From the IMG/VR virus record IMGVR_UViG_3300045988_182214: a stretch of DNA of 64,000 nucleotides; one strand, given 5' to 3'. A model generated the notes under the pieces. The model saw only the letters and a list, made by a program, of their open reading frames with translations. It was not told the DNA's origin and searched no databases. The first letter of the stretch is position 1. The number at the start of each line of letters is the position of its first letter. Position numbers and translations under genes: made by a program. Below, piece by piece: positions 50,174 through 63,407 of this stretch. This stretch comes from a virus.

Positions 50174-50183
50174 ATGAATTGGC

Positions 50184-50223: not shown

Positions 50224-50239
50224 AGATTGGAGGAAAGAT

Positions 50240-50626
50240 ATGACCTATTTAGAATTAGCAAGAAAGATAAAGAATGCATATAAGGAATTAAAGCAAAATG
50301 AAGTATATAAACTTTTCAATGTCATATGGAATAATGACCTTGGAGAGTCAGAAATTACAGTTGAAAATGATGCTGGATTTAGAGCAATTATTATTGGTAA
50401 TACAAGCGGTATAAAAAAATCAAGAGGTTACATGTATTTGTTTTATACCAATAATGACACAGAATCATTTCCGACTATTAAAGAAATAGAACACAGATTA
50501 AGAGTAGTTGCAAATCAAGAAATTTTAACAGATAAAAATGTGAATTATTTTGATTGGGAACAGTATGGTTCTTTAGAAGAACAGAGAAAATATTTTTCAG
50601 AAATAATTTTAAATACAACAAAATGA
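50240..50626 (+). CDS. hypothetical protein
   Basis: SD GGAGGAA upstream. Confidence 0.45.
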   Translation: MTYLELARKIKNAYKELKQNEVYKLFNVIWNNDLGESEITVENDAGFRAIIIGNTSGIKKSRGYMYLFYTNNDTESFPTIKEIEHRLRVVANQEILTDKNVNYFDWEQYGSLEEQRKYFSEIILNTTK

Positions 50627-50627
50627 T

Positions 50628-50667
50628 GATTTACTGGTATGAATGAGTAGACAAGAGTTTCTTTAGA
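50628..50667 (+). repeat. linker repeat, copy 2
   Basis: GATTTACTGGTATGAATGAGTAGACAAGAGTTTCTTTAGA. Confidence 0.6.
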
Positions 50668-50687
50668 TTAAAAGGAGAGTGTAAACT

Positions 50688-50885
50688 ATGGCATATATAT
50701 TAGGAAGATTGATTTCATGGAATATAAAATTTGAAAAAGTTGATAGTAAATGCGTAAGAGTATATGGAAACTTTGATGGTTTTTCTGTAGTAAGAGAATC
50801 AGAACAGGAAAACTATATCGAAGTGGATGGAAGGCTTATTGACTATGAGAATTTTGAAGATTGGCTATATGTTATTAAGCAATGA
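50688..50885 (+). CDS. small protein
   Basis: SD AAAGGAG upstream. Confidence 0.4.
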   Translation: MAYILGRLISWNIKFEKVDSKCVRVYGNFDGFSVVRESEQENYIEVDGRLIDYENFEDWLYVIKQ

Positions 50886-50942
50886 AACGATGATTGACTA
50901 AGAAAGTGAAAAAATAATATAGTAAGAAAAATTAACAATAAA

Positions 50943-51215
50943 TTGTATAAAGTTAATACATATTTTTCTGCACACATTATTGAAGTAGATGATAATTATG
51001 ATGAAGAAGTACAGAAACTAAGAAAAGAAATCCAGTTTGACAGTATTGGATACAAATTGAACTTACTTGTATATCTTGCCACATTAACGGTACAAGGATA
51101 TGCAATTTTAAGCGTAACAGAATTTAATATTGATGGAAGTAAGCCTAGAGTTGCTTATGCAAGTAATAAAGATTTCAAGAAAATTGTTAAATATTATTTT
51201 GGAAAGAAAGCATAG
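50943..51215 (+). CDS. hypothetical protein (weak start)
   Basis: TTG start with no SD; ORF only. Confidence 0.3.
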   Translation: MYKVNTYFSAHIIEVDDNYDEEVQKLRKEIQFDSIGYKLNLLVYLATLTVQGYAILSVTEFNIDGSKPRVAYASNKDFKKIVKYYFGKKA

Positions 51216-51248
51216 GAATCAGAAATTTACTATTAGGAAGGATATCAA

Positions 51249-51301
51249 AGGAAATTAGAAAGTAATTGGTTTAGAAAAACAGATGTAACTGGCAGTTTCA
51301 A
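51249..51301 (+). repeat. second linker repeat family, copy 1
   Basis: GGATATCAAAGGAAATTAGAAAGTAATTGGTTTAGAAAAACAGATGTAACTGG; encodes the remnant GYQRKLESNWFRKTDVTG. Confidence 0.55.
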
Positions 51302-51316
51302 TAGGAGGAAAAATAA

Positions 51317-51583
51317 ATGAAATTAAAAAAGGATAGAAACGATAAAACGATAACGGATAATATAAAACTTTCAAAGACTGCTGAAGAACTATTAGAAGCC
51401 ATGAAAACTGAGTACTTACGAAGGATAGAATCAGCACATGTGCTGTCAGTAAAAAATGCGTGGTATTATTCGTATTTAGGTTCATTAGATTTTGCTAGAC
51501 AAATGGGACTTATTTCCGAGGAACATCGACAAGAGTTATGTCGGGAATTTAGTAAAGCTATTACGAATATAATAACGAAATAA
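51317..51583 (+). CDS. small protein
   Basis: SD AGGAGG upstream. Confidence 0.4.
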   Translation: MKLKKDRNDKTITDNIKLSKTAEELLEAMKTEYLRRIESAHVLSVKNAWYYSYLGSLDFARQMGLISEEHRQELCREFSKAITNIITK

Positions 51584-51629
51584 TGAAACGATGTAAATGC
51601 TCGAAATGCAAGACATCTTACGGTTGCAT

Positions 51630-51682
51630 GGATACCAAAAGAAATTAGAAAGTAATTGGTTTGGAAAAATAGATGTAACTGG
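51630..51682 (+). repeat. second linker repeat family, copy 2
   Basis: GGATACCAAAAGAAATTAGAAAGTAATTGGTTTGGAAAAATAGATGTAACTGG; encodes the remnant GYQKKLESNWFGKIDVTG with no start codon. Confidence 0.55.
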
Positions 51683-51836
51683 TAATTGGAAATATAATCG
51701 CATAGAATAACAAAAACTTAAAAAATTGCGAAGCAAATTTTAGATAATTAAATAATAAGGAATAAATAAGGGATTGATTAATTTAATCCCTTATTTTTTA
51801 TTTGGATACACTTCGAAGCTTTGGTCTAGGATATTT

Positions 51837-51859
51837 ACTTATGCTTTGTACTCAGTATA
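51837..51859 (+). repeat. bracket box L, copy B
   Basis: ACTTATGCTTTGTACTCAGTATA. Confidence 0.5.
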
Positions 51860-51993
51860 TAACTTCAACTGCATAGCTTGATTACATGTTCATATTAAAG
51901 CCCGGCCTTTCATAAAAACGAGAAATATAATCCACCATATGTATGATAGGAAATATAATATTTTTTTTGACACAAAAAATTGGTTTATCCCAG

Positions 51994-52023
51994 CAAACCA
52001 TAAATTTGTAACTTAAAACTTCA
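51994..52023 (+). repeat. bracket box R, copy B
   Basis: CAAACCATAAATTTGTAACTTAAAACTTCA. Confidence 0.5.
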
Positions 52024-52065
52024 GAGTTTTATCTATATTGTTTGATATTATAACAAAATAAATGT

Positions 52066-52079
52066 TTTTTCTGTCATAT
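52066..52079 (+). promoter_or_regulatory. promoter-like motif TTTTTCTGTCATAT
   Basis: 35 nt upstream of ATG 52114. Confidence 0.55.
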
Positions 52080-52113
52080 ATAAATTAAATAATTTTTTAA
52101 AGGAGGCCATTAA

Positions 52114-52203
52114 ATGGGAACAAAGAAAAATAATAATGTAAAAGAATTAATAGAAAAACTCAGAAAAACGGCTTTATTAAAGGAAATTTTAAAAATAGAA
52201 TAA
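52114..52203 (+). CDS. tiny peptide (29 aa)
   Basis: Motif plus SD AAAGGAGG plus ATG; MGTKKNNNVKELIEKLRKTALLKEILKIE. Confidence 0.3.
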   Translation: MGTKKNNNVKELIEKLRKTALLKEILKIE

Positions 52204-52296
52204 TTTTATACATATAAAATATTCAACCAAAATTCTTGTTGAATTTTCAGATGGAACATCTAAATGATATTAAAAGTAAAGAGAGGACAAAACTAT

Positions 52297-52761
52297 ATGA
52301 GTTACAGAACAAATGTAAATGGTACACAGATTTTTGGCGATAACGAATGGTATGGCGAATGGGGCAAATACCTTATAAGTAAAGGTATAAAAATCAGTGA
52401 TGAAGGTTTATATGAGGGCGAACTTGATGATTTTATGGAAGCCTTAGAAGTCATTGAAAAGATTACAATGAATATTGAAGCTAAAAGACGAGAGCGTAAG
52501 GAAGCCGGAGGAAAATTTTTCAGCCAGAGTATTTTTGATAATGGAGACATTTACGATAGTCTGGTTAATGATGACGAACATTATGAAAGCCTGTTTGATA
52601 AGGAAATTGAGATTATTAAACATGGGTATATGTTTCTTCCTATACAGTTCTTTAAAGCGTGTGAAGATATGCTTGAATATACAGGCATTGATTTAAAGGG
52701 CAGCCGCACTTATACATATAAGCTTAAGGATGGATGCAAGATAAAAGTAACAGCAGGCTGA
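52297..52761 (+). CDS. hypothetical protein
   Basis: SD AGAGAGGA upstream of ATG 52297 (in frame with ORF-track start 52264). Confidence 0.5.
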   Translation: MSYRTNVNGTQIFGDNEWYGEWGKYLISKGIKISDEGLYEGELDDFMEALEVIEKITMNIEAKRRERKEAGGKFFSQSIFDNGDIYDSLVNDDEHYESLFDKEIEIIKHGYMFLPIQFFKACEDMLEYTGIDLKGSRTYTYKLKDGCKIKVTAG

Positions 52762-52776
52762 TAAGAAAGGGTATGT

Positions 52777-52968
52777 ATGAGTAAACAAGAGTTTCAAGGG
52801 AAAGGCAAATATATGAAAGTAAAAGAATTTTTAGAAAATTTCACAGGAGATAATCATATTAAAATTTATGATATGCATAGCTTTGATACGCATAGATATA
52901 ATAATGCAAATGAAGCTATAAGACAATTTGGTTATTATACAGATGGAAAATTATTGATAATGTCTTAA
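52777..52968 (+). CDS. small protein (MSKQEFQG...); intact member of the family whose 5' remnants form the linker repeats
   Basis: SD AAGAAAGGG upstream; 5' end ATGAGTAAACAAGAGTTTC. Confidence 0.45.
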   Translation: MSKQEFQGKGKYMKVKEFLENFTGDNHIKIYDMHSFDTHRYNNANEAIRQFGYYTDGKLLIMS

Positions 52969-53001
52969 AAATAACTATTAGAACACAATTCTAAAAATGA
53001 G

Positions 53002-53190
53002 GTGAATTATATGCACATAACAAAGGAAATGAATATGCATAATTGTCAATTATGTAGAAAAGAATGGCTTGGAAGATGTTTCGGAAAGAAATATGGGAAA
53101 GATGTATCTGTTGATAATGAACCATGTAAGTGTTACGAATTTGGCGGTTCAGAAGAGAGACTAAAAGAAATTGAGAATAATATGAAATGA
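53002..53190 (+). CDS. small Cys-containing protein
   Basis: SD GAGGTGA upstream. Confidence 0.4.
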   Translation: MNYMHITKEMNMHNCQLCRKEWLGRCFGKKYGKDVSVDNEPCKCYEFGGSEERLKEIENNMK

Positions 53191-53218
53191 GGATTTACAA
53201 GGAAGCGAGGTATACAGT

Positions 53219-53524
53219 ATGGATGAATTATTGAAACAAATCCAAGAATATATAAAAGCGTATAAAGAACCGCCATACGGAAAAGAAGTAGAAGGAACAA
53301 CGGAAATTCTTGAAAAATCTTCTCAAACTTTGATAAAGACAGCACATAGAGTAGTGCTTTTGGAAAATCAATTTATTGATGGAATGAAGGTAAAGTATCA
53401 AGGTGATGATGAAATGGACGGTATTGAATGTCCTATATGTAAATATGAGGTCGCAACAAATGATGATTATGCAGAAATGCGACCAAAACATTGTCCAGAA
53501 TGTGGCACAAAACTTATTTATTAG
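53219..53524 (+). CDS. Zn-ribbon protein (CPICK ... CPECG)
   Basis: SD GAGGT upstream. Confidence 0.45.
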   Translation: MDELLKQIQEYIKAYKEPPYGKEVEGTTEILEKSSQTLIKTAHRVVLLENQFIDGMKVKYQGDDEMDGIECPICKYEVATNDDYAEMRPKHCPECGTKLIY

Positions 53525-53602
53525 AATCCAATGAAAAGGTGACTTACTTAGAAAAGGAATTAGATAATGAACAAAAAGCTTTAAAAGAAATGAGGGATAG
53601 AA

Positions 53603-53794
53603 ATGGTACTTGTAAGAATAAAAGATAAGAGATACCACATCGGCTACAATATAAAATTTTTTAAAACTGACACTATAACAGATGAAGTTATACAGTTTAT
53701 AAAAAGTCATCCAAAAGCTTATTGGGTAGAATGCGGTGAAAAAATTTATCGCAGTAGAGAAGAATTGAAAGAATTGTTAAATCCAAGGAAATAA
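53603..53794 (+). CDS. small protein
   Basis: SD GAGGGA upstream. Confidence 0.4.
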   Translation: MVLVRIKDKRYHIGYNIKFFKTDTITDEVIQFIKSHPKAYWVECGEKIYRSREELKELLNPRK

Positions 53795-53795
53795 T

Positions 53796-53827
53796 GATTT
53801 ACAGGTGCATGAGTAAACAGAGTTTCA
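53796..53827 (+). repeat. linker repeat, degenerate copy 3
   Basis: GATTTACAGGTGCATGAGTAAACAGAGTTTCAG (MSKQSFS* remnant). Confidence 0.45.
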
Positions 53828-53875
53828 GTTGAATCTTTAACTATAAGAAAAGGTTAAAACAGAAAGGAAAATATT

Positions 53876-54106
53876 ATGCTTAATATAGTTATTATCAATT
53901 GTGATGATAAGTATGTAGAATATGAATGGACTTCAAAAGAAGCATTTGCACAGGATATGCAAAGTGATAATGAAAACATCCCAATGCTCGATGATGCTTT
54001 GGCAGAAGTAAATACACAAGACGATAATTTACTGTTATGGTGGAGAAACACAGATGGATTAACAGTAGATGATTTGTTAGAAGAATGTAAACAGGAATTA
54101 AATTAG
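53876..54106 (+). CDS. small acidic protein
   Basis: SD GAAAGGAA upstream. Confidence 0.4.
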   Translation: MLNIVIINCDDKYVEYEWTSKEAFAQDMQSDNENIPMLDDALAEVNTQDDNLLLWWRNTDGLTVDDLLEECKQELN

Positions 54107-54120
54107 ATAGGAGTGATAAA

Positions 54121-54300
54121 ATGGAATGTCCGATATGTAAAAATACACTAGGCTTTAATTGTGGAACATGTATTGAGTGTGGATACAATTATCTGAATGG
54201 AAAGTTTGAACATATAAGAGTTTATGTTGATGATTTAAAAAATATTGTTCCGTTGGATATTTTAGAAGAATTGATAGAAGAACATAAAAGATTGTACTGA
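54121..54300 (+). CDS. Zn-ribbon protein (CPICK ... CGTCIECG), 59 aa
   Basis: SD TAGGAGTGA upstream. Confidence 0.35.
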   Translation: MECPICKNTLGFNCGTCIECGYNYLNGKFEHIRVYVDDLKNIVPLDILEELIEEHKRLY

Positions 54301-54426
54301 TGATGAAGAAGATGATGAATCTTTATGAATTTAATTATAAAGTCTGCTTTATCAAATATGAAAGCTGTTAATAAGAATTTTGAACGAGATAATTTTAGAT
54401 AGAAATAAAAAGGGAAAGTAAAAAAT

Positions 54427-54741
54427 ATGGATTTAATTGATAGAAATTATTTATTAAAAAATATAATAAGTTGGGGAAAATTAGTAAAAGGCAATAATGC
54501 AAAGAAATTACTTACAGAAGTAATCAATTATATTCAAATACAAGATACTATTGTTGATATGCAGAAGCTTATAGATGGAGTGAATTTTCAAAAAATAGGT
54601 TTGGAATATTTAGATGATAAAGACATTAAAGATGCAACTATTTATAATGGAGCAATAGATGATGGTATAAATGAAATTAAAAACGCTATGAATCCTAATT
54701 ATATAAAAGCTTTTGATTGGGATAAAACAGAAGGATTTTAG
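54427..54741 (+). CDS. hypothetical protein
   Basis: SD AAAGGGAAAG upstream. Confidence 0.45.
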   Translation: MDLIDRNYLLKNIISWGKLVKGNNAKKLLTEVINYIQIQDTIVDMQKLIDGVNFQKIGLEYLDDKDIKDATIYNGAIDDGINEIKNAMNPNYIKAFDWDKTEGF

Positions 54742-54763
54742 ATAGGAATAAAAAGGTGAATTT

Positions 54764-54955
54764 ATGGAAAGTGAAATTAACATTAAACTTAAATACTGCC
54801 CTTTTTGTGGTGGACATGCAACAATGATATATGATAATCAGGAAGGATATTATATATATTGTGACGACTGTTGTATTATGACTGGCAATAGTTTTGATAA
54901 AGAAAAGATAATTAATACATGGAATAATAGAGTAGTAATTAACGAAAGGGAATAA
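54764..54955 (+). CDS. Lar-like restriction alleviation family protein (tentative)
   Basis: KYCPFCGGHATMIY...YCDDCC...TWNNR matches the CPFCGG ... WNRR architecture of the Lar family. Confidence 0.4.
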   Translation: MESEINIKLKYCPFCGGHATMIYDNQEGYYIYCDDCCIMTGNSFDKEKIINTWNNRVVINERE

Positions 54956-54957
54956 TT

Positions 54958-55149
54958 ATGAAAGAAATGTGTTTGATTAATGCGATTATGTATGAAATGT
55001 ATCTACATGGCGAAGACGAGAACTATGAAACTTATGAAGAAAGAGAAGAAAAGCTTAAGAATGACCCAGAGCTTCAGAATCTAATAAAGCAAAGCATGGA
55101 CATTATTAATGAAACAGATAAATTATTAAAGGAATATGATAACGAATAG
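54958..55149 (+). CDS. small acidic protein
   Basis: SD AAAGGGAA upstream. Confidence 0.4.
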   Translation: MKEMCLINAIMYEMYLHGEDENYETYEEREEKLKNDPELQNLIKQSMDIINETDKLLKEYDNE

Positions 55150-55201
55150 AGATGAATTATAATAACAGATGAATGATGGCTTAATAGCAGAAAGGGAACT
55201 T

Positions 55202-55570
55202 ATGTTTAATTTGACAAAAGAACAGGTATTACAAACATTAGAAAATTATGAAAAAATCATGGATAGAGTAGCAGAAGTAATTGATGAGATTGGCTTTACA
55301 AATGAGGAGTTTGATGCATTTGAATCAGAAAAAACCGATTTTGGAAAAGATACAGTTTATGTAACTGCATATGACAGCCATTATGATTTGTATGACTCAA
55401 GAGGTGGCTCTTTTCCTTTAGATTTTCTGTTTGAAGATGAAGAACAGCATAAAGACTGGTATAAAAACAAGCAGGAGCAGGCAGAGCAGGAAAGGCTACG
55501 AGAAGAAGAACAAAAACAGCAAGAACAGGAATTAGCTGAATTGAAGAGGTTAAAGGAAAAGTATGAGTAG
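55202..55570 (+). CDS. hypothetical coiled-coil protein
   Basis: SD AAAGGGAA upstream of ATG 55202 (in frame with ORF-track start 55169). Confidence 0.4.
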   Translation: MFNLTKEQVLQTLENYEKIMDRVAEVIDEIGFTNEEFDAFESEKTDFGKDTVYVTAYDSHYDLYDSRGGSFPLDFLFEDEEQHKDWYKNKQEQAEQERLREEEQKQQEQELAELKRLKEKYE

Positions 55571-55606
55571 TATGAAAAATAAAAAGAAAATGGAGGAAAT
55601 AATAAC

Positions 55607-55948
55607 ATGAAATATGTAAGTAATGCAAAGATGAATACTTCTGTAGAAAGCGGAACAATTTTCGAGGGGAAATGCGGATTAGTTGATATCACTATCCATT
55701 TATATCGGAAAAATAAATTTTCTGGTCGTGGTGATACATTTTATCTATCCTCAAACTGTGTTGGAATATCAAATATGAAATTGGAGAGTAAAAGTATCAT
55801 TACGGCTATCCAAGAGGCTGAAATTATTGTAAATAAGGAAATAATCACCATGAAAAATGATGCTGACAAGATGCTAAATAGTAATATTGAAATTTCAAGG
55901 GAATGTGATGCTGATAACTGTATGGATTGTGATTACAGAGAAATGTGA
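55607..55948 (+). CDS. hypothetical protein
   Basis: SD GGAGGAAA upstream. Confidence 0.45.
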   Translation: MKYVSNAKMNTSVESGTIFEGKCGLVDITIHLYRKNKFSGRGDTFYLSSNCVGISNMKLESKSIITAIQEAEIIVNKEIITMKNDADKMLNSNIEISRECDADNCMDCDYREM

Positions 55949-55970
55949 ACCATTATAAAGGAGAAAAAGT

Positions 55971-56276
55971 ATGAAATTAGTTATGGATAAAGAAACCTTA
56001 ATAACACTGGAAGAATACAGAGCTGCTCACAATCTGCCAAAGATTGAGAATTATGGAATGAGCGTTGAGCATAATCCGAAATCAAAAGAAATTTATGATT
56101 TCATCAGTGAGGTGGACTTTGTAAATGGGGATGCGTTCTGCTTCAAATGTGGTGGAGACGGAGATAATGGAGAGATGTTTATGTCTCTGTTGGATGAGTA
56201 TTTTAAGCAAAAAGAGTGTAAATTAGCTAAAGAGTCTGATGAAAATGAAGAAATAAATGACATTGATTTAGACTAA
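55971..56276 (+). CDS. hypothetical protein
   Basis: SD AAAGGAG upstream. Confidence 0.45.
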   Translation: MKLVMDKETLITLEEYRAAHNLPKIENYGMSVEHNPKSKEIYDFISEVDFVNGDAFCFKCGGDGDNGEMFMSLLDEYFKQKECKLAKESDENEEINDIDLD

Positions 56277-56621
56277 AGTATCTCTAAAATTCATCGAAAA
56301 GGTTATAGTTGGCAGATGAAATTTGGTACTCTTATCAAAGATAGGTTTAAAAATGATGAAGTAAATGCTATTTTAGATTATCTTTCAGAATCAGAGATAA
56401 AAGATAAATTAGCAATAGAAACATTACAGGTAATTTTTATAGAAATTGGAGATAAAAATGGTTTTAATCAATAAATATAAATATACAAAATATGCCGAAA
56501 GGGGTGAGTATCATTGCGATATAAGCAAATTCCTTGATGAACAAGCAGGTATTAAAAAAGAAGATAGATGGTTAAGTCCTATTTTTGGTTAAAAAAATTG
56601 AAAGAAAAAGGAGAAAAGTAC

Positions 56622-57185
56622 ATGAAAGTTTATGATACAGGATTAATATGTGGACGATTTCAGACATTTCATAAAGGACATGAACGCCTTGTAGATACAG
56701 GATTATTGTTGTGTGACCGGTTATTGATATTGATAGGTTCTGCACAGGAATGTGGTACAGAGCGAAATCCTTTTAATATTAATACAAGGACTAAGATTCT
56801 TAAAGAGATATATGGCGATAGACCGGAAGTGATGATTTATGGTTTAGCTGATTTAACAGATGAAAATGATATCCGCCCGGAATGGGGCAGATACTTACTT
56901 AATAATACTGACAGATACATTCATAAGAATCCTGAAATAATGATTTATGGAAATGATGAATCCCGAAGCAATTGGTTTGATAAGAAAGACCTTGCTAATA
57001 CAGCAGAACTTATTATGAACCGCTATGATATGCCTATCTCTGCTACAATGGTCAGAACCGCTATGGCTAAAGATGATAGGAAGCTCTGGATGTCTTATGT
57101 AAATCCCAGATTGCATAAAATGTATGATGAGCTAAGAGAAGAACTTATGACAGTTGAATTCTATAAGAATCTGGCTAAAGAATAA
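56622..57185 (+). CDS. nicotinamide-nucleotide adenylyltransferase (NadM-type NMNAT)
   Basis: GRFQTFHKGH matches the NadM/NadR signature GRFQPFHxGH of the (H/T)xGH nucleotidyltransferases; ISATMVR matches ISSTxIR; SD AAAGGAGAA upstream. Confidence 0.75.
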   Translation: MKVYDTGLICGRFQTFHKGHERLVDTGLLLCDRLLILIGSAQECGTERNPFNINTRTKILKEIYGDRPEVMIYGLADLTDENDIRPEWGRYLLNNTDRYIHKNPEIMIYGNDESRSNWFDKKDLANTAELIMNRYDMPISATMVRTAMAKDDRKLWMSYVNPRLHKMYDELREELMTVEFYKNLAKE

Positions 57186-57209
57186 TATGTAAATATAAAG
57201 GAGTTTATT

Positions 57210-57518
57210 ATGGCATTTAAAAATTTTTTAGATTTAAAGGTTGGAGACAAAGTGGTATGTTTAGATGAGTATTCAGGGGGAACATCTTACCATGAATTAG
57301 TAATTAATGAAATAGAAGATGATAGTGAATACGCTACTGAAACCAATCCTACCGGCAGACGATATTTTGGAACAGACCAAGCTTATGTGGACGAGAACGG
57401 AAACTTTGATGAAGGAGATAATGAATATCTGACTGTCGTAGATGAAGGAAACTATTTATATGTGGTTGACAAAGATGCTGCATCAAAAGAAAACTATGAT
57501 TGTGATTATGACAGATAA
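57210..57518 (+). CDS. hypothetical acidic protein
   Basis: SD AAAGGAG upstream. Confidence 0.45.
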   Translation: MAFKNFLDLKVGDKVVCLDEYSGGTSYHELVINEIEDDSEYATETNPTGRRYFGTDQAYVDENGNFDEGDNEYLTVVDEGNYLYVVDKDAASKENYDCDYDR

Positions 57519-57563
57519 AAATGGTCAAAGGTTTAATTATAAAGCCTGATTAAAGGAGTTAAT

Positions 57564-57731
57564 ATGGATAATGCAAGCATTAATGATAGATTGATAAAAA
57601 TAGAACATAAGGCAGAGCAGATGGATTTAACATACTTTAAGGATTCAGACGGTAAGTATTGTATATGTGATGTTGACTGGATTGGCAGATTTGATACATT
57701 GGAAAAGTTAGAAAACTATCTTGACTTATAG
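57564..57731 (+). CDS. small protein (55 aa)
   Basis: SD TAAAGGAG upstream; below the ORF-track cutoff. Confidence 0.35.
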   Translation: MDNASINDRLIKIEHKAEQMDLTYFKDSDGKYCICDVDWIGRFDTLEKLENYLDL

Positions 57732-57744
57732 GCAGGTGGATGAA

Positions 57745-57945
57745 ATGGTAAAATGCTGTGCTAATTGTAAAAATTGTGTAGCTATTCCAAGGAATAATAG
57801 CTATAACGATATTGATTATCTATGCGTAATAAGCAGCTATTTTGTTATAAGCGTACATAAGGATATAAACAGGATAAAGCATTTGACTCCGGGTGGTAGA
57901 GAACTGGAATGTAAATATGAACCTGATGAAAGGAGATTGACATGA
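57745..57945 (+). CDS. Cys-rich small protein (CCANCKNC)
   Basis: SD AGGTGGA upstream of ATG 57745 (in frame with ORF-track start 57721). Confidence 0.4.
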   Translation: MVKCCANCKNCVAIPRNNSYNDIDYLCVISSYFVISVHKDINRIKHLTPGGRELECKYEPDERRLT

Positions 57946-58151
57946 ATTTATTAGAAAGCTATATAAAGGAAATACATTCAGTTAATGATGTTACAGAAGA
58001 CTTTATGAAGCATTGTGGCTATGAACCTAAAGAGACATTATTTGAAGTAGACTTAACTTCTGTATGCTATGGTGTTACTGAAAGAACAAAGAAGATGTTC
58101 TGGAAGAGTGAATTTGAGAAAGTAAAGAAGGATGGCTATTATATGTCATAA
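57942..58151 (+). CDS. small protein
   Basis: SD AAAGGAG upstream; overlaps the upstream stop. Confidence 0.4.
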   Translation: MNLLESYIKEIHSVNDVTEDFMKHCGYEPKETLFEVDLTSVCYGVTERTKKMFWKSEFEKVKKDGYYMS

Positions 58152-58163
58152 AGGAGATAAAAT

Positions 58164-58496
58164 ATGAAAATATATTTTGAAGATGGAAGATTAGATAACC
58201 CACCATTTTGTGATTATCATGTAGATGCCGCTGAAGGAGTAATGGCTAATATATATTGGCTGGATGCTATTAAAGAAAAAGTACCGGATTCAGTTATTTA
58301 TACCAATTCAATTTTTGCCTTTGATAATACATATGCTTGGGATAATGAACTTAATAGACCTGAAATTTATTTAAGAGATTCATCAGGCGAATTTAAAAAT
58401 ATAACTGAATTTACAGCAAGATTATTAAAAGAAGGACATAATCTTGCTAAATTATATATAGCCGGGGAATTTAAGAGAAAGGACATATGCATATGA
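58164..58496 (+). CDS. hypothetical protein
   Basis: SD AAGGAG upstream. Confidence 0.45.
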   Translation: MKIYFEDGRLDNPPFCDYHVDAAEGVMANIYWLDAIKEKVPDSVIYTNSIFAFDNTYAWDNELNRPEIYLRDSSGEFKNITEFTARLLKEGHNLAKLYIAGEFKRKDICI

Positions 58497-58867
58497 TTAA
58501 ATGTAATAGCAAATTTGCCTATTGTGATAAATGTGTGGCAGATATGGACGCACAGCAAAGTTTAGGCGGAACAATATGTTGTGATACAGCAGAAGATCTT
58601 GAATACAATAAAGAAAATATTTTAACTCATTGTGAATACGCTGAACTTATAAAAGATAATAAGCCGTCTATAAAACTTGAAAACATCTTTTTGTTTGATG
58701 TTGCAGATGGTTGTAATGGAGGATTAATAATTGCAAATGATTTAGATGACGCATGGGAAAAGCTGGCAGCAGATAGAGATTGCCCAGTAAAGGATTTTAA
58801 AAAAATGGCTTGTATAGCTCCAATTACGACATTAGATTTAACAAGAAATATACATAACTTATATTAA
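58487..58867 (+). CDS. hypothetical Cys-containing protein
   Basis: SD AGAAAGGA upstream. Confidence 0.45.
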   Translation: MHMIKCNSKFAYCDKCVADMDAQQSLGGTICCDTAEDLEYNKENILTHCEYAELIKDNKPSIKLENIFLFDVADGCNGGLIIANDLDDAWEKLAADRDCPVKDFKKMACIAPITTLDLTRNIHNLY

Positions 58868-58938
58868 AGGCTAATGCTTGAAAATATAATAATGTAAATA
58901 AAACCATGAAGTTTTAAATTCATAATATGTTCAATGAA

Positions 58939-58970
58939 CACCGGTTACATTTGTAGCCGGTGCTTTTTTA
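58939..58970 (+). terminator. rho-independent terminator
   Basis: CACCGGTTAC attt GTAGCCGGTG followed by CTTTTTTA; near-duplicate of the hairpin at 42608. Confidence 0.7.
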
Positions 58971-58983
58971 TTTTCTGTCATAT
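58970..58983 (+). promoter_or_regulatory. promoter-like motif TTTTCTGTCATAT
   Basis: 36 nt upstream of ATG 59019. Confidence 0.55.
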
Positions 58984-59018
58984 TTATTTCAAATCATTTT
59001 ATAAAGGAGAAAATATAT

Positions 59019-60299
59019 ATGGCAGAGAAATTTACATGGAACTTTAGCAGCATTGCCCCAGAATGTTTATACAGTGAATACAAGAAAGTAAGAATAGGTA
59101 TTGAAGGAGTATATGCTTATGGAACAGGATATCTGGTTGATAAAACTGCATTTGAAAGAGAGTTATATCCAGAACTTGCAATAGCCGGATATCTGGTTGA
59201 TTTTTCAAGAACTTATGGTGTCTGTGATGAATTAAGGCTTGTAAGTAAAGACAGTTTAAGAAATAATATATGTCTTAATCCCGAAGCATTATTTAATGTA
59301 TATATGCATCCGGCAGAATTTACAGGATATATGAAAGATAGTGATGTTGAAGAAATCACTGAAATTTTAAAGAAGAACAGCTTTGTAAAAAATGTAGAAG
59401 TTACATATAAAAAGCCAGTACTTAATCTTACGAACAATGAATATAAAAAGGTCATAAGAGATAATTTCACAAATATCTGTAAATATATAGCACATTTAAA
59501 GGAATTAAAATATTCAGATATAGATGCAGCATTTGAATTTGCAAGAAATTACGGCAACATAACACTGGAAGATCCTAAGACTGTTCTTAGCAGTGATACT
59601 GTAGAAGTAAGATATATAACAGAATTCTTGGATAATTTAAAAAGCTTAGAAATAGATATAAGAGATCTTAATAAGCTATCTAAAGAAAAAAGTATATCAG
59701 CTAAAAAGGATAATGAAAAGTCAAAGCTTAAGATTCCAGATATCATAAAGGATTTATTTTTAGATTCTAAAATTATAATTAGGATAAATAATGAACGTGA
59801 GCATCAGATATTTTTGGAGAATTTTAAAAACGATATGAAATTAATATCTTTATCGTATAAGTCTGAATATACTTATTATTTAGCAGACAATGGTGGTAAC
59901 AATCTCACAAGATATTCAACAGCAATATTGGAGCCTGATTTAGATGATAAATTAGAGCTTAATTTAGAAGAAATATACGAAATTTCTCAAATTAAAAAAA
60001 TACCGGATGTTATTATAAATATGTTTATAAATAAAGAGATTGCTATTCAGGTTAATAGTAAACTGGAACAGTATATGTTATTTTTGACATTATATGGTTC
60101 AGGTAAATTTACAATCATTCTTAAAGATTATCCTTTTTATCACAAAAAGCATCCATTTTATTGTATTAATACGGTGAATAAAGTTGATGATAAACAGTAT
60201 ATGGAAGATATTGCTGAAATAGATAACATAAAGCAGTTTGTAGAATTTAATGATTGGGATAATATTCAGAGAATAACTGAAGACAAACAATATATATAA
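59019..60299 (+). CDS. hypothetical protein (426 aa)
   Basis: SD AAAGGAG upstream. Confidence 0.55.
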   Translation: MAEKFTWNFSSIAPECLYSEYKKVRIGIEGVYAYGTGYLVDKTAFERELYPELAIAGYLVDFSRTYGVCDELRLVSKDSLRNNICLNPEALFNVYMHPAEFTGYMKDSDVEEITEILKKNSFVKNVEVTYKKPVLNLTNNEYKKVIRDNFTNICKYIAHLKELKYSDIDAAFEFARNYGNITLEDPKTVLSSDTVEVRYITEFLDNLKSLEIDIRDLNKLSKEKSISAKKDNEKSKLKIPDIIKDLFLDSKIIIRINNEREHQIFLENFKNDMKLISLSYKSEYTYYLADNGGNNLTRYSTAILEPDLDDKLELNLEEIYEISQIKKIPDVIINMFINKEIAIQVNSKLEQYMLFLTLYGSGKFTIILKDYPFYHKKHPFYCINTVNKVDDKQYMEDIAEIDNIKQFVEFNDWDNIQRITEDKQYI

Positions 60300-60343
60300 C
60301 AGATAAGAAGCCAATACATAAAAATGAAAAGGAGAGAAAAATT

Positions 60344-62023
60344 ATGTTGATTGATACTCAGAGAATTGAAGATTTTTTAAAAACACATAGCTGCCACATA
60401 ATAAACGAAGAGAAGACCTTGGAAGATAAGGTAACTTATCCGGATTTTACCACAAACAGATACGAGAGCGTATTCAAGCAGCTACAGACTGATATCGAAG
60501 TTGAGAAAACTTATGATGCACTTGAGGATGTGTTATTTGTTGAAAATAAGGATGGAGATTTAGTATTAGCTGGACCTTATGAATTTACGATAAATGAAAA
60601 GATATATTCATATGAAGCAGGTACACCAAGAGAACCAATCTGGAAAGATATGTTTAATCTTCATAGTAAAGGAGCAGAGTTTACATATAGTACAGAATAT
60701 GAAGATGTTAATTATGAAACAGTAGAGAGGAACAATAATAAAGAGACTCCTTATATGAATATACTTAACAATCAGAATTTAAAGAAGAAATATGATAGTG
60801 GTGAAATAAGAATACCCGATAATATTATGTCAAAATATATGAATGAAAAAGTTGTCTTTGTAATAGATAATAAGGAAGAAAGAGATATATTAGCCTATAA
60901 TATAGCTAGATTCTCTTATACTGGGATTATTCCTGAATATAATTCAAATAAGCCTTACTGGTTTAAAAATAATGATATAACTTGCAGTAACTTTAAGACA
61001 ATTCCATTTAAGTTTCAATTTATGATTTATACAGATTTTTCAATAATCCTTGAACAAAGTAAATATAAATCAATGTGTTTTAAGGATAAAAAAATAGCTG
61101 AGTATGGTTATGAGTTTAATGATGGCGACCAAATATGGAGTGATACAACAGAAATTTATAAGACGGATAATGATAACCTTTTTATAAAAAAATACGAAGA
61201 TGGATATAATGAAAAAGTTAAATATTCCACAATAAGTCTCAATAACTTAATAAAAGAAATCCAACAGCATAAGAAAGATAAAGGTAAAAGTAGAAGAGGT
61301 GGTTGTTTTATTGTAAAAGACATTCCGAATGAATATTATAAAATAGGAGAAAAGAATATAGAATTGGATATACCTTCAAATAATGAAAAACATAATACAA
61401 AAGCCCTGTTATCACAGGCTGAATATATTGGAAGAGAAGATATAGAGCATAAACTTGAGGCTGGAGAAGAATGTGATGAGGACATGACATCAATATTATA
61501 TTTCAGACTTCCAAAGGATAACTCTTATATAGCAGAAGCTTATGAAAAAGAAACTGTTGAAGCTGCAAAGGAAGTAGGTTTAAAAATAATATTTCCATAT
61601 AAGAAATTGAATCCGGCATCAGGAGAAGCTTATCTTACAGCAGATGTTGATGGGGATGCATTTAAACTTGATACTTTGATAAATCTTAAACCAGAGGATA
61701 TAAGCAAGTTAATTACAAACTCCTATATTAAAAACTTTTGTAATGGTGATATCGCAATTAAGATAAATTCACAGGAAGAACTTGATATACTTTTATCCCA
61801 GCTACAAAATAAAGATGTAAAAGCACCCGTTTATATACATTATAATTCAAGATTTCCATATTTCTATATTGACAGAATTTCTGGTAGGCTTAAAGCAAAC
61901 CATAATTTTAATAATATAAATAGCGTTCATTGCATAGAGCATTGCTATAATTTTTCTGATTTAATAGATAAGGATAAACAAGATAATAAACAGGAAGATG
62001 AACCTGTTATAGATTTAGATTAA
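60344..62023 (+). CDS. hypothetical protein (559 aa)
   Basis: SD AAAGGAG upstream. Confidence 0.55.
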   Translation: MLIDTQRIEDFLKTHSCHIINEEKTLEDKVTYPDFTTNRYESVFKQLQTDIEVEKTYDALEDVLFVENKDGDLVLAGPYEFTINEKIYSYEAGTPREPIWKDMFNLHSKGAEFTYSTEYEDVNYETVERNNNKETPYMNILNNQNLKKKYDSGEIRIPDNIMSKYMNEKVVFVIDNKEERDILAYNIARFSYTGIIPEYNSNKPYWFKNNDITCSNFKTIPFKFQFMIYTDFSIILEQSKYKSMCFKDKKIAEYGYEFNDGDQIWSDTTEIYKTDNDNLFIKKYEDGYNEKVKYSTISLNNLIKEIQQHKKDKGKSRRGGCFIVKDIPNEYYKIGEKNIELDIPSNNEKHNTKALLSQAEYIGREDIEHKLEAGEECDEDMTSILYFRLPKDNSYIAEAYEKETVEAAKEVGLKIIFPYKKLNPASGEAYLTADVDGDAFKLDTLINLKPEDISKLITNSYIKNFCNGDIAIKINSQEELDILLSQLQNKDVKAPVYIHYNSRFPYFYIDRISGRLKANHNFNNINSVHCIEHCYNFSDLIDKDKQDNKQEDEPVIDLD

Positions 62024-62099
62024 AAATAAGGCTTTAGCTGGAAAAAATAACAGTTAGAGCCTTCTAAACAAAAAAACAAAACAGAAGGAATAAAATATT

Positions 62100-62528
62100 A
62101 TGAATGAATTAAAACTTAAAATAGGAGATAAAGTACTTATAACTAATGGACTTCCAACAGAAGATAAAATAGGAACAGTAATAAAAATTACTCCAACCGG
62201 AAGAATAAAGTTAGATATATATACAGACTATCAGTTTGATAAATATGGCAGACAGATGGGAAACAGAGATATATGGAGCAGAAGCAAAAGCATAAGAATC
62301 CCTGATAAAGAAGATTATAACAGAGTCCATAAAAATGAAATTATAGGGCATATTTATTCAAAAATTAAACAGGTCAATATTCAGAATTTTTATGATACAA
62401 ATATTAATACACTTGAGATTTTAGATAATTGTCTGGATTTAATAGGAGAAAGTAAAGAGCCTGAATATATAAAATCAAATGCAGATAATTCAAATAACCA
62501 GAGTATTGATTTGAATGAAGAAAGGTAA
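62100..62528 (+). CDS. hypothetical protein
   Basis: SD GAAGGAA upstream. Confidence 0.5.
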   Translation: MNELKLKIGDKVLITNGLPTEDKIGTVIKITPTGRIKLDIYTDYQFDKYGRQMGNRDIWSRSKSIRIPDKEDYNRVHKNEIIGHIYSKIKQVNIQNFYDTNINTLEILDNCLDLIGESKEPEYIKSNADNSNNQSIDLNEER

Positions 62529-62542
62529 AAGAGTATAGCTTT

Positions 62543-62896
62543 ATGGAGAATAAAAGTGTTAGAATAAAATTAGACATTATAGATAAATTAAAAAATGCTA
62601 AACATCAGATATCTTTAGATGATGAAGATTTAGAACACTATCAGGAAGCTATAGATGATGCAATTGAGATAGTAAAATCTTCAATTATTCCTGAACCTGT
62701 AAAGAAATTAACAAGAAAAGAGCAGGGCAAAATAATATGTGAGCATTTAAAACATGATGGTGATGATTTAGATGAAACAGTAATGATAAGTTCTGTATGG
62801 GATGCTTTAAAAGAGATTGAAAAGATTAATGACAGTAAAGGTATAAAAGAATCTAATTGTCCTGCATTATATTTCCATGCAATAGAAAAGGAATAG
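62543..62896 (+). CDS. hypothetical acidic protein
   Basis: Weak SD. Confidence 0.45.
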   Translation: MENKSVRIKLDIIDKLKNAKHQISLDDEDLEHYQEAIDDAIEIVKSSIIPEPVKKLTRKEQGKIICEHLKHDGDDLDETVMISSVWDALKEIEKINDSKGIKESNCPALYFHAIEKE

Positions 62897-62914
62897 GTAA
62901 ACAGATTATCAAAA

Positions 62915-62948
62915 AAGCTTCTATGTAAACTCATAGGAGCTTTTTTTT
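62915..62948 (+). terminator. rho-independent terminator
   Basis: AAGCTTCTATG taaac TCATAGGAGCTT followed by T8. Confidence 0.75.
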
Positions 62949-62975
62949 GATATATATGTTAATTTATTAATTTTA

Positions 62976-62989
62976 TTTTTCTGTCATAT
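62976..62989 (+). promoter_or_regulatory. promoter-like motif TTTTTCTGTCATAT
   Basis: 36 nt upstream of ATG 63025. Confidence 0.55.
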
Positions 62990-63024
62990 TTTCATTAAAT
63001 AATTTATTTAAAGGAGACAAAGAT

Positions 63025-63375
63025 ATGAAAAAGTTCATTTACAACAAAATAGTAACAGATTATAGCAAAAAATCAAAAGAAGAACTTATACAGGAGATCA
63101 TGGCACTAGAAAGAATTGAATGCTCTGATAGATGTTTCGCTAATCAGTGCGAAGCAGGTAATGCTATAGCAAATATCAATAGATTGTTTGCAGCATTAAA
63201 CGATACGCCAGAAATATCTAATTATGTTCGCAGTATAATAGTTGATGCAGAAATCAGTTGGGAATATATTACAAGTGGAATTAGTACAATTAATGATGAT
63301 TCAAGATGCGAAAATGCATTAATAGAATTTAAAAACAGAGTTGCTGAAGCTACTGATGATGACGATTGTATTTAA
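63025..63375 (+). CDS. hypothetical protein
   Basis: SD AAAGGAG upstream. Confidence 0.5.
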   Translation: MKKFIYNKIVTDYSKKSKEELIQEIMALERIECSDRCFANQCEAGNAIANINRLFAALNDTPEISNYVRSIIVDAEISWEYITSGISTINDDSRCENALIEFKNRVAEATDDDDCI

Positions 63376-63407
63376 ACTTAACAAGGTATTAAAAAGGAGA
63401 TAAGTAT

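What the first reader, a model, noticed from the sequence alone, without database searches (positions are those of the whole stretch)
56622..57185. Phage-encoded NadM-type NMN adenylyltransferase, a candidate NAD+ salvage or counter-defence gene
The GRFQTFHKGH and ISATMVR motifs identify a 187-aa NMNAT. Phage NMNATs, paired with a nicotinamide phosphoribosyltransferase, rebuild NAD+ and can overcome NAD+-depleting defence systems (TIR, SIR2 and SEFIR effector families). The gene sits among small Zn-ribbon and Lar-like proteins, which fits an anti-defence neighbourhood. No Nampt/NadV-like gene of about 470 aa is present in this window.
Basis: partly seen in the sequence, partly recalled or inferred. 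Interest (0 to 1): 0.6.

Follow-up and report, generated by a model that had tools for sequence, protein, structure and literature searches.

The report
Orphan NMN adenylyltransferase in gut phage
The gene is real and encodes a small enzyme of the type that makes NAD+ (or its deamido precursor) from a pyridine mononucleotide and ATP; it sits in a swappable gene cassette of a large gut Clostridia phage-like element without the partner enzymes that related phages keep next to it, so it is a fairly ordinary new member of a known kind.

Summary
Window 56622..57185 (+) is a 187-aa ORF with a good ribosome-binding site. GRFQTFHKGH lies at residues 11-20 and ISATMVR at 139-145.

All sequence evidence places it with NadM/archaeal-type NMN adenylyltransferases. 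A family profile matches NadM (2qjt) at 2e-23 and archaeal NMNAT at 1e-21, but PPAT only at 6e-5. Every curated NMNAT cut-off is missed and there is no Nudix domain, so this is a separate single-domain subfamily. It is common in gut Clostridia phages and prophages and is under strong purifying selection (dN/dS 0.02-0.08).

Relatives support an NAD role by context:
- NadE and a NadV/Nampt-type enzyme within 10 kb in 36 and 27 of 106 loci.
- PncB directly adjacent in 4 loci.
- One fusion of this domain to NAD synthase.
- NAD-dependent LigA nearby in 5 loci.

The window has none of these partners. The gene lies in a 2.6-kb cassette that is absent from an otherwise 94-99% identical relative.

Most likely it catalyses NMN/NaMN + ATP -> NAD+/NaAD. 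Alone it cannot rebuild NAD+ from ADP-ribose and nicotinamide, so a counter-defence role is plausible but unproven. Verdict: new member of a known kind, moderate interest.

The parts
56622..57185 (+). 187-aa single-domain pyridine-mononucleotide (NMN/NaMN) adenylyltransferase gene, stop codon included
   Evidence: Translation. Pfam PF01467 above cut-off. Best NCBIfam, PHROG and PDB hits are all NMNAT types. AlphaFold2 model pLDDT 95.8, with NadM 2qjo as the best fold match at TMq 0.75. dN/dS 0.02-0.08.
56607..56613 (+). Ribosome-binding site AAAGGAG, 8 nt before ATG 56622
   Evidence: Read directly from the sequence. It supports the 187-aa start rather than the ATG at 56568. Public gene calls agree.
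56652..56681 (+). GRFQTFHKGH (G11-H20), the (H/T)xGH ATP-binding motif in the NadM/archaeal 'GRFQPxHxGH' form
   Evidence: R12 and H20 are invariant in 64 family members. HMM alignments place them opposite R11 and H19 of M. thermoautotrophicum NMNAT, residues whose mutants were crystallised (1m8f/1m8g/1m8k, listed).
56850..56885 (+). D77...W88 loop, the predicted NMN/nicotinamide-binding loop
   Evidence: D77 is nearly invariant and W88 invariant. They align with D80 and W87 of Mth NMNAT and with the conserved W of 2qjt, 2qjo and 1f9a. This is the lowest-confidence block of the model (pLDDT 84), consistent with a mobile substrate loop. The roles assigned to D80 and W87 are from my memory of the 1EJ2 paper.
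57036..57056 (+). ISATMVR (I139-R145), the ISxTxxR second signature of this nucleotidyltransferase superfamily
   Evidence: T142 is nearly invariant and R145 invariant. R145 aligns with R136 of Mth NMNAT, the residue mutated in 1m8j.
54966..57587 (+). Variable cassette of about 2.6 kb carrying the NMNAT gene and seven small ORFs of unknown function
   Evidence: In relative L189 the flanks are 94-99% identical, but this segment is missing and replaced by about 240 bp. Positions 55572-57816 recur at 96.6% identity in L003/L005 within an otherwise different element next to host genes.
54764..54955 (+). Lar-like restriction-alleviation gene (63 aa) just upstream of the cassette
   Evidence: phrog_599 at 4.8e-12. 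PF14354 is recorded for the same gene in L004/L006.
58939..58972 (+). Strong terminator-like hairpin closing the co-directional array of small genes that includes the NMNAT
   Evidence: 10-bp stem with 6 G-C pairs followed by a T-run. Promoter-like sites in the region are no more frequent than in shuffles.

Best explanation
The ORF encodes an active single-domain adenylyltransferase. It belongs to a gut-Clostridia phage/prophage subfamily that is sister to NadM and the archaeal NMNATs.

Inferred chemistry. The HxGH motif (H17/H20), R12, and the ISxTxxR motif (S140/T142/R145) hold ATP. The D77...W88 loop holds the pyridine mononucleotide. The mononucleotide 5'-phosphate attacks the ATP alpha-phosphate, giving NAD+ (from NMN) or NaAD (from NaMN) plus PPi.

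Role in this element. The gene is an accessory gene in a swappable 2.6-kb cassette, without the partners (NadV/Nampt, PncB, NadE, Prs-like, LigA) that relatives keep beside it. It would therefore raise the capacity of the last adenylylation step of NAD+ synthesis during infection, using mononucleotides supplied by the host. Possible sources are NMN released by NAD-dependent DNA ligase or host salvage, and NaMN from PncA/PncB or de novo synthesis, the latter finished by host NadE.

What is shown and what is inferred. Shown: gene reality, family placement, conserved catalytic residues, purifying selection, NAD-gene context in relatives, and absence of partners from the window. Inferred: the substrates, the NAD+-boosting role, and any counter-defence benefit.
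For: Family placement:
- NCBIfam top four hits are all NMNAT models.
- PHROG 3462 NMNAT and 395/3041.
- Profile against PDB: 2qjt 2.2e-23, 2qjo 5.9e-22, 1f9a 9.5e-22, 1ej2 5.6e-18, phage NadR-like Bas30_86 (9x6f) 2.7e-14, PPAT 5.6e-5 or weaker.
- Ten diverse family members all give NMNAT models as best hits.

Catalytic residues: R12, H20, R56, W88 and R145 are invariant in 64 sequences down to 29% identity.

Fold: pLDDT 95.8, best match NadM at TMq 0.75.

Selection: dN/dS 0.02-0.08.

Context in relatives:
- NadE (TIGR00552, 177 bits) directly upstream in 36 of 106 loci.
- NadV/Nampt-type PRT (NF006629, 468 bits, above its 405 cut-off) in 27 of 106 loci.
- True PncB (TIGR01514, 418 bits, above 270) directly adjacent in L101, L105, L106 and L196.
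- Fusion protein P0222, this domain plus NAD synthase.
- NAD-dependent LigA within 10 kb in 5 loci.

Literature: phage NMNATs rebuild NAD+ in NARP2 (bioRxiv 10.1101/2024.02.11.579819) and NARP3 (PMC13464706).
Against: - All curated NMNAT model cut-offs are missed (52 against 127; 51 against 181). Orthology to characterised enzymes is therefore not established, and no member of this subfamily has been assayed as far as I could find.
- Fold similarity alone separates NMNAT from PPAT only weakly (TMq 0.75 against 0.62-0.65).
- No partner enzyme is present in the 64-kb window or within about 10 kb beyond either end.
- The cassette is dispensable (L189), so the benefit is conditional.
- Iyer et al. 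[quoted passage not shown] That was not seen here, but the rest of the genome could not be searched.
Confidence: 0.78

Rival explanations
1. It is one half of a complete phage NAD+ reconstitution pathway of the NARP2 type (Nampt + NMNAT). The Nampt/NadV gene would lie elsewhere in the same genome, outside the window. The pair would rebuild NAD+ from nicotinamide and overcome TIR/SIR2/SEFIR NADase defences.
For: Relatives with 69-76% identical NMNAT carry NadV/Nampt about 5.5 kb away. Iyer et al. report that NadM phages always carry NadV (PMC9503650). 94% of phages with a KVP40-type Nampt also have an Nmnat. Contigs carrying this gene are 230-667 kb, of which only about 84 kb could be inspected.
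Against: There is no NadV in the window or its reachable flanks. The NMNAT travels in a 2.2-2.6-kb cassette without NadV.
Confidence: 0.2
2. It is chiefly a NaMN adenylyltransferase (a functional analogue of NadD) feeding NaAD to NAD synthase. That would make it the adenylylation step of a Preiss-Handler-type route rather than an NMN route.
For: NadE is the most frequent neighbour, directly upstream in 36 of 106 loci. One member is fused to NAD synthase and sits directly after a true PncB. PncB is adjacent in three further divergent members. Archaeal enzymes of this clade are reported to accept both NaMN and NMN (from my own knowledge).
Against: The same NadE-linked clusters also carry NadV/Nampt, which makes NMN. 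Sequence cannot decide between NMN and NaMN preference. The window encodes no NadE, so host NadE would be needed.
Confidence: 0.3
3. It recycles the NMN released by NAD-dependent DNA ligase during heavy phage DNA replication. Ligation would then effectively be ATP-driven and NAD+ would stay available.
For: NAD-dependent LigA lies within 10 kb of the gene in five relatives, and only one small ORF away in L195. The window is dominated by a replication module: RecJ, UvsX, primase, helicases and a DnaE-like polymerase.
Against: Only 5 of 106 loci show this link. No LigA is present in the window. The replication module is 20-50 kb from the gene, which sits among small accessory ORFs.
Confidence: 0.15
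4. It is a different (H/T)xGH nucleotidyltransferase (PPAT, FAD synthetase, glycerol-3-phosphate cytidylyltransferase or citrate-lyase ligase), or a decaying remnant with no activity.
For: Only the generic Pfam/TIGR00125 models pass their cut-offs. PPAT structures are near neighbours in fold space. NCBI names homologues merely 'adenylyltransferase/cytidyltransferase family protein'.
Against: PPAT, RibF and TagD matches are 18 or more orders of magnitude weaker than NMNAT matches at profile level. The NMNAT-specific residues R48/R56/W88 are conserved. Every informative neighbour or fusion is an NAD enzyme. dN/dS of 0.02-0.08 excludes decay.
Confidence: 0.04

Closest known systems
NadM, the bifunctional NMN adenylyltransferase/ADP-ribose pyrophosphatase (Synechocystis slr0787, PDB 2QJO; Francisella tularensis, PDB 2QJT/2R5W), and its phage counterpart KVP40 NatV of NARP2
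   Same: Best profile matches (2e-23, 6e-22) over the whole 175-residue adenylyltransferase domain, including the C-terminal helices. Best fold match (TMq 0.75). Same GRFQPxHxGH, conserved W and SxTxxR signatures.
   Different: No Nudix domain (187 aa against about 340). About 21% identity. 59 bits against a 397-bit cut-off. No NadV partner in the window.
Archaeal single-domain NMNAT (M. jannaschii MJ0541, PDB 1F9A; M. thermoautotrophicum, PDB 1EJ2)
   Same: Same single-domain size class (168-181 aa). The N-terminal motif is almost identical to MJ0541 (GRFQPFHKGH). R11/H19/R47/R55/W87/R136 are all conserved as R12/H20/R48/R56/W88/R145.
   Different: TIGR01527 and PRK01153 cut-offs are missed (51 against 181; 52 against 127). 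The D...W substrate loop is longer (10 intervening residues against 6). The C-terminal helices are additional or divergent. The setting is bacterial virus or prophage.
NadR-type NMNAT domain, including phage Bas30_86 of NARP3 (PDB 9X6F/9X6H; PMC13464706)
   Same: Best single-sequence PDB hit (2.7e-8, residues 5-150, both motifs aligned). A phage-borne NAD+-rebuilding adenylyltransferase.
   Different: No ribosylnicotinamide-kinase domain and no PnuC transporter gene in the window. At profile level NadR types rank below NadM and archaeal types.
NadD, the bacterial NaMN adenylyltransferase of the Preiss-Handler/de novo route
   Same: Possibly the same physiological step, NaMN -> NaAD followed by NadE, as suggested by PncB and NadE adjacency and the NadE fusion in relatives.
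   Different: A different branch of the superfamily. The NadD model TIGR00482 was hit by only one of the family members scanned, at 31 bits, and not by the query.

Membership tests
HIGH/(H/T)xGH nucleotidyltransferase superfamily (Pfam PF01467 CTP_transf_like) | Score above the Pfam gathering threshold | tested here: met
   38.4 bits against 21, residues 8-146 covering model positions 1-132 of 133. TIGR00125 gives 32.4 against 27.7.
HIGH/(H/T)xGH nucleotidyltransferase superfamily (Pfam PF01467 CTP_transf_like) | HxGH motif after strand 1 and ISxTxxR motif near the C-terminus, on a Rossmann-like fold | tested here: met
   H17-K-G-H20 and I139-S-A-T-M-V-R145. The model has five parallel strands with flanking helices at pLDDT 95.8.
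NadM/archaeal-type NMN adenylyltransferase (TIGR01527, PRK01153) | Score above the curated family cut-offs | tested here: not met
   TIGR01527 gives 51.2 against 181.2. PRK01153 gives 52 against 127. The same shortfall appears in the other family members scanned.
NadM/archaeal-type NMN adenylyltransferase (TIGR01527, PRK01153) | These families are the closest relatives, ahead of PPAT, NadD, NadR and RibF | tested here: met
   Profile against PDB: NadM and archaeal NMNAT at 2e-23 to 6e-18, NadR types at 3e-14 to 5e-6, PPAT at 6e-5 or weaker.
NadM/archaeal-type NMN adenylyltransferase (TIGR01527, PRK01153) | Conservation of catalytic/substrate residues R11, H19, R47, W87 and R136 (Mth numbering) | tested here: met
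   R12, H20, W88 and R145 are invariant, and R48 is the consensus residue, in A2.
NadM/archaeal-type NMN adenylyltransferase (TIGR01527, PRK01153) | NMN + ATP -> NAD+ + PPi activity | not testable with these tools
   Needs an enzyme assay.
Bifunctional NadM-Nudix (PRK05379 models; KVP40 NatV type) | C-terminal Nudix ADP-ribose pyrophosphatase domain | tested here: not met
   The protein ends at residue 187. Matches cover only model positions about 14-197 of 354. No Nudix hit appeared in the Pfam/PHROG scans of the window ORFs that were searched, which cover all ORFs of 250 aa or more, most mid-size ORFs and the near neighbours.
NARP2 (phage Nampt + Nmnat NAD+ reconstitution pathway) | A Nampt/NadV gene in the same genome | tested here: inconclusive
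   Absent from the 64-kb window and about 10 kb beyond each end.
NARP2 (phage Nampt + Nmnat NAD+ reconstitution pathway) | Rescue of phage from NAD+-depleting defence systems | not testable with these tools
   Needs infection assays.
NARP3 (PnuC-like transporter + NadR-like NMNAT-RNK) | Ribosylnicotinamide-kinase domain fused to the NMNAT, and an adjacent PnuC gene | tested here: not met
   The protein is single-domain. No PnuC or RNK family appeared in the Pfam scans of window ORFs. The only P-loop kinase is guanylate-kinase-like and lies 38 kb away.
Phosphopantetheine adenylyltransferase (CoaD) | Best match to PPAT models | tested here: not met
   24 and 17 bits against cut-offs of 104 and 103. 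5.6e-5 at profile level, covering only the N-terminal 70 residues.

The most novel reading that the evidence does not exclude
This single-domain subfamily could be a dual NaMN/NMN adenylyltransferase that phages of gut Clostridia combine in modules:
- with NadE and PncB, giving a complete phage Preiss-Handler route (nicotinate -> NAD+);
- with NadE, NadV and a Prs-like enzyme;
- with LigA;
- or, as in this window, alone as a one-gene cassette.

The PncB/NadE combination would be a phage NAD+-rebuilding route distinct from NARP1-3. The orphan cassette would be a minimal NAD+ booster that plugs into host PncA/PncB/NadE, and it would be an exception to the reported rule that NadM phages always carry NadV.
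Probability: 0.25. Interest if true: 0.6.

Novelty: new member of a known kind. Interest (0 to 1): 0.35.

Why it matters
NAD+ depletion is a common bacterial anti-phage strategy, and three phage pathways that rebuild NAD+ are known (NARP1-3). This gene adds an abundant, uncharacterised, single-domain adenylyltransferase subfamily from human-gut Clostridia phages. The identical protein is indexed in over a thousand blocks of the assembly collection.

Its contexts in relatives (NadE, PncB, NadV, LigA) suggest these phages assemble NAD+ routes from interchangeable parts, including a deamido (Preiss-Handler) route that none of the three NARP papers or the 2022 survey read here describes for phages. 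The natural presence/absence polymorphism (window type against L189 type) offers a ready comparison for asking what a lone last-step enzyme is worth to a phage. For the window gene itself the result is mostly confirmatory.

Tried and rejected
- Megablast of 50000-64000 against 50,697 phage records found no match. tblastn of the protein found only 30-32% identical NadM-Nudix/'cytidyltransferase' genes in T5-like Vibrio phages and one Bacteroides phage.
- I tried to establish whether the rest of this genome carries NadV. Look-ups are limited to window proteins, so only about 10 kb beyond each end was reachable. The exact RecJ product was not on record. Three IMG/VR scans with Nampt queries gave no hit on the relevant contigs, but the widest one was capped at 80 of at least 545. 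This remains inconclusive.
- Foldseek alone does not discriminate well. PPAT structures are interleaved with NMNATs by E-value. I rely on profile scores, conserved residues and context instead.
- PHROG and precomputed Pfam annotation of the neighbours identified only the Lar-like gene. An 'anti-defence island' is therefore not demonstrated.
- Promoter-like sites are no more frequent than in shuffles. There are no tRNAs and no Rfam families in the window.
- I considered that the Prs-like + Nampt-like pair in relatives might be NARP1 (Adps + Namat) rather than Prs + Nampt. PDB sequence searches gave ordinary Prs (52 bits) and 'nicotinamide phosphoribosyltransferase' entries (9w5x, 396 bits) and could not decide.
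- I considered an alternative genetic code or a Lak-type megaphage because of the 230-667-kb contigs and 29% GC. I rejected it. Coding density is 83% under code 11, with TAA/TGA/TAG stops at 60/21/21. Related loci sit next to 38%-GC host genes, which fits a large prophage in Clostridia.

Full report
**Observation.** Window 56622-57185 (+) translates to 187 aa plus a stop codon. The longest mechanical ORF begins at ATG 56568. However, AAAGGAG at 56607-56613 lies 8 nt before ATG 56622, and the upstream ORF stops at 56592. Public gene calls on at least 24 long contigs give exactly this 187-aa product. GRFQTFHKGH is residues 11-20 and ISATMVR is residues 139-145.

**What the protein is.**
- Pfam gives CTP_transf_like at 38.4 bits, above its cut-off of 21.
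- The four best NCBIfam models are all NMN adenylyltransferases: the NadM-Nudix N-terminal half at 58.8 bits, PRK01153 at 52, archaeal TIGR01527 at 51, and the NadR NMNAT domain at 39.5. PPAT reaches 24 bits and RibF 12. None of the NMNAT models reaches its curated cut-off.
- PHROGs gives 'cytidyltransferase' families 395 and 3041 and NMNAT family 3462.
- The best single-sequence PDB hit is 9x6f. The NARP3 paper identifies it as the NadR-like enzyme Bas30_86 of a coliphage bound to NAD+ (PMC13464706).

An exhaustive search found 2049 cluster representatives at E <= 1e-3 and 73 at E <= 1e-30. Most are 175-230 aa and cover the query end to end. A 64-sequence alignment reaching down to 29% identity (A2) has R12, H20, P50, R56, W88 and R145 invariant.

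A profile built from A2 matches the following:
- Francisella NadM (2qjt) at 2.2e-23.
- Synechocystis NadM (2qjo) at 5.9e-22.
- MJ0541 NMNAT (1f9a) at 9.5e-22.
- M. thermoautotrophicum NMNAT (1ej2) at 5.6e-18.
- NadR-type domains at 2.7e-14 to 4.8e-6.
- PPATs only from 5.6e-5, and only over the first 70 residues.

In these alignments R12, H20 and R145 fall opposite R11, H19 and R136 of the M. thermoautotrophicum enzyme. Mutants of those three residues were crystallised (1m8f/g, 1m8k, 1m8j; titles). W88 falls opposite W87 and the conserved W of the other three structures.

The AlphaFold2 model is confident (pLDDT 95.8, pTM 0.90). Its best Foldseek matches are NadM chains (TMq 0.74-0.75). PPATs (0.60-0.65) and archaeal NMNATs (0.64-0.68) follow closely, so fold alone is only weakly discriminating.

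The gene is under strong purifying selection, with dN/dS 0.02-0.08 for pairs where dS is not saturated.

Conclusion: this is a bona fide adenylyltransferase of a distinct single-domain subfamily whose nearest characterised relatives are NadM and the archaeal NMNATs. It lacks the Nudix domain that defines bacterial and phage NadM.

**Context in relatives.** The family occurs on at least 119 IMG/VR contigs (up to 244 kb) and on 22 GTDB genome contigs. Nearly all of the latter are Clostridia, including the isolates Flintibacter muris DSM 110149 and Eubacterium plexicaudatum ASF492.

I called ORFs in all fetched loci and clustered them. In a clade whose enzyme is 69-76% identical to the query, the gene sits in an NAD island:
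- NAD synthase NadE directly upstream (TIGR00552, 177 bits; 36 of 106 loci).
- A NadV/Nampt-type phosphoribosyltransferase about 5.5 kb away (NF006629, 468 bits, above its 405 cut-off; 27 loci).
- A Prs-like protein, a macro domain, an RNA 2'-phosphotransferase (KptA/Tpt1), a NADAR protein, a PurA-like protein, dUTPase and an integrase.

Further links were found in more divergent members:
- Members at 34-40% identity have a true nicotinate phosphoribosyltransferase PncB immediately adjacent (L101, L105, L106).
- One representative, P0222, is a fusion of this domain to NAD synthase and is encoded directly after PncB.
- An NAD-dependent DNA ligase lies within 10 kb in five loci, and one small ORF away in L195.

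Every informative neighbour or fusion partner is therefore an NAD-making or NAD-using enzyme. The PncB/NadE links imply that NaMN is a likely substrate alongside NMN. The 106 loci include many near-identical contigs, so these counts are not independent events.

**Context in the window.** The window has 29% GC and nearly all its genes are on the + strand. It carries a phage-type replication module:
- A RecJ-like exonuclease, a UvsX/RecA-like recombinase, a primase and UvrD-type helicases.
- A DNA methyltransferase.
- A DnaE-like polymerase in three ORFs.
- A sigma factor.
- SPFH/flotillin, two Rce1-like proteases and a guanylate-kinase-like protein.
- Dozens of small ORFs without homologues.

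The nearest cultured relatives of the replication proteins are large Firmicutes phages at 23-25% identity, among them Bacillus phages FADO, Kirov and others with yorK-type RecJ. Uncultured human-faecal phage contigs match at 30-40%. IMG/VR lists related contigs as viral. I saw no virion genes in the reachable sequence, so 'phage' rests on these indications.

None of the following is encoded in the window: NadV, PncB, NadE, a Prs-like enzyme, LigA, macro, NADAR, KptA, PnuC, a ribosylnicotinamide kinase or Nudix. None lies in the roughly 10 kb beyond either end.

The gene lies in a tightly packed co-directional array of small ORFs that ends at a strong terminator-like hairpin at 58939-58962. Of its neighbours only the 63-aa Lar-like gene at 54764-54955 has a family match.

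The segment 54966-57587 is missing from relative L189, whose flanks are 94-99% identical. Positions 55572-57816 recur at 96.6% identity in L003/L005. There the surrounding genes differ, and host genes (tmcAL, pta, ackA, yceD, rpmF; GC 38% against 27-30% for the element) begin about 5 kb away. The enzyme therefore travels in a small exchangeable cassette, and related elements exist as prophages. This also explains the 230-667-kb contigs.

**How it most likely works.** By homology, HxGH, R12 and ISxTxxR bind ATP and stabilise the transition state. The D77...W88 loop binds the pyridine mononucleotide. The products are NAD+ (from NMN) or NaAD (from NaMN) plus PPi.

In this element the enzyme stands alone, so it can only amplify the last adenylylation step using host-supplied mononucleotides. 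It cannot by itself rebuild NAD+ from the ADP-ribose and nicotinamide left by TIR/SIR2/SEFIR effectors:
- NARP2 needs Nampt (bioRxiv 10.1101/2024.02.11.579819).
- NARP3 needs PnuC plus the kinase domain (PMC13464706).

A counter-defence benefit is conceivable through host PncA/PncB (nicotinamide -> nicotinate -> NaMN) and NadE. This is inference only.

**Comparison and novelty.** Phage NMNATs are known: KVP40 NatV in NARP2 and Bas30_86 in NARP3. Surveys describe NadM and NadV in phages and state that every NadM phage has NadV (PMC9503650).

This gene is a new member of that known kind. It has three modest departures: single-domain architecture, frequent coupling to NadE or PncB in relatives, and apparent orphan status here. 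Whether NadV lies elsewhere in the genome could not be settled.

**Verdict.** The counter-defence reading is plausible but untested, and a one-enzyme pathway would be incomplete. Interest is moderate to low for the window gene itself and somewhat higher for the family-level pattern.

Noticed in passing
window 22478-24316, 24694-25449, 31124-32806 (+): One DnaE-like DNA polymerase (phrog_405, 1190-position model) is encoded as three consecutive ORFs matching model positions 48-443, 444-660 and 661-1103. A 374-bp gap separates parts 1 and 2. About 5.7 kb of other genes (RlaP-type nucleotidyltransferase, exonuclease, small ORFs) separate parts 2 and 3. No Rfam intron family was detected. The cause could be a split gene, an intron or intein, or mobile insertions.
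   Followed up: partly
L041-L076, L089 (for example L064 3501-4973, L056 1967-2770, L069 8978-9739): Related phages carry an NAD 'island' around the NMNAT: a Prs-like gene directly before a Nampt/Namat-type gene, then KptA/Tpt1, a macro domain, NADAR, NadE and the NMNAT. The Prs-like + Nampt-like pair could be NARP1 (Adps + Namat) rather than Prs + Nampt. If so, these phages would combine NARP1 with an NMNAT/NadE route, whereas no phage with both NARP1 and NARP2 was found in bioRxiv 10.1101/2024.02.11.579819. PDB searches could not decide.
   Followed up: partly
L196 52-3613; L101, L105, L106: There is an operon of PncB followed by an (adenylyltransferase-NAD synthase) fusion, then a guanylate-kinase-like gene and a nucleoside 2-deoxyribosyltransferase. 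This is a compact Preiss-Handler route on a short metagenomic contig. PncB is also adjacent to the adenylyltransferase in three MAG contigs. The guanylate-kinase-like gene is 29% identical (2e-19) to window 17931-18491.
   Followed up: partly
window 15582-16463 and 32922-33830 (+): Two Rce1-like (CAAX protease/Abi-type) membrane proteins sit inside the replication region, and an SPFH/flotillin protein lies at 10475-12046. This is unusual cargo for a replication module. Its function here is unknown.
   Followed up: no
L003 and L005, 1-8200 against 8400-20564: The same NMNAT cassette lies in an element of 27-30% GC that abuts 38%-GC host genes (tmcAL, pta, ackA, yceD, rpmF). A 289-aa NADAR protein and a PBECR4 protein lie a few kb downstream. 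This indicates integration next to rpmF in a Clostridia chromosome.
   Followed up: partly
L190 and L191 12253-14016 against L189 12191-13671; L001 19747-20564; L003 11334-12452: A small resolvase/MerR-HTH gene plus an IS605-family OrfB/TnpB (Cas12f-like) gene are inserted downstream of the NMNAT region in some otherwise near-identical relatives and not in others.
   Followed up: no
contigs behind L001-L006 and L189-L194: Contigs carrying window proteins range from 231 to 667 kb. The element is either very large or, more likely, a large prophage assembled together with host chromosome. No virion genes were seen in the roughly 84 kb inspected.
   Followed up: partly
window 34245-35270 (+), 42818-43252 (+), 26542-27528 (+): The element encodes a sigma-70-family factor (phrog_351, 1.4e-54), a YqeY-like protein and a RlaP-type RNA-repair-associated nucleotidyltransferase. 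Relative L195 pairs RlaP with a CCA-adding-enzyme-like gene and a ClpP-like protease.
   Followed up: no
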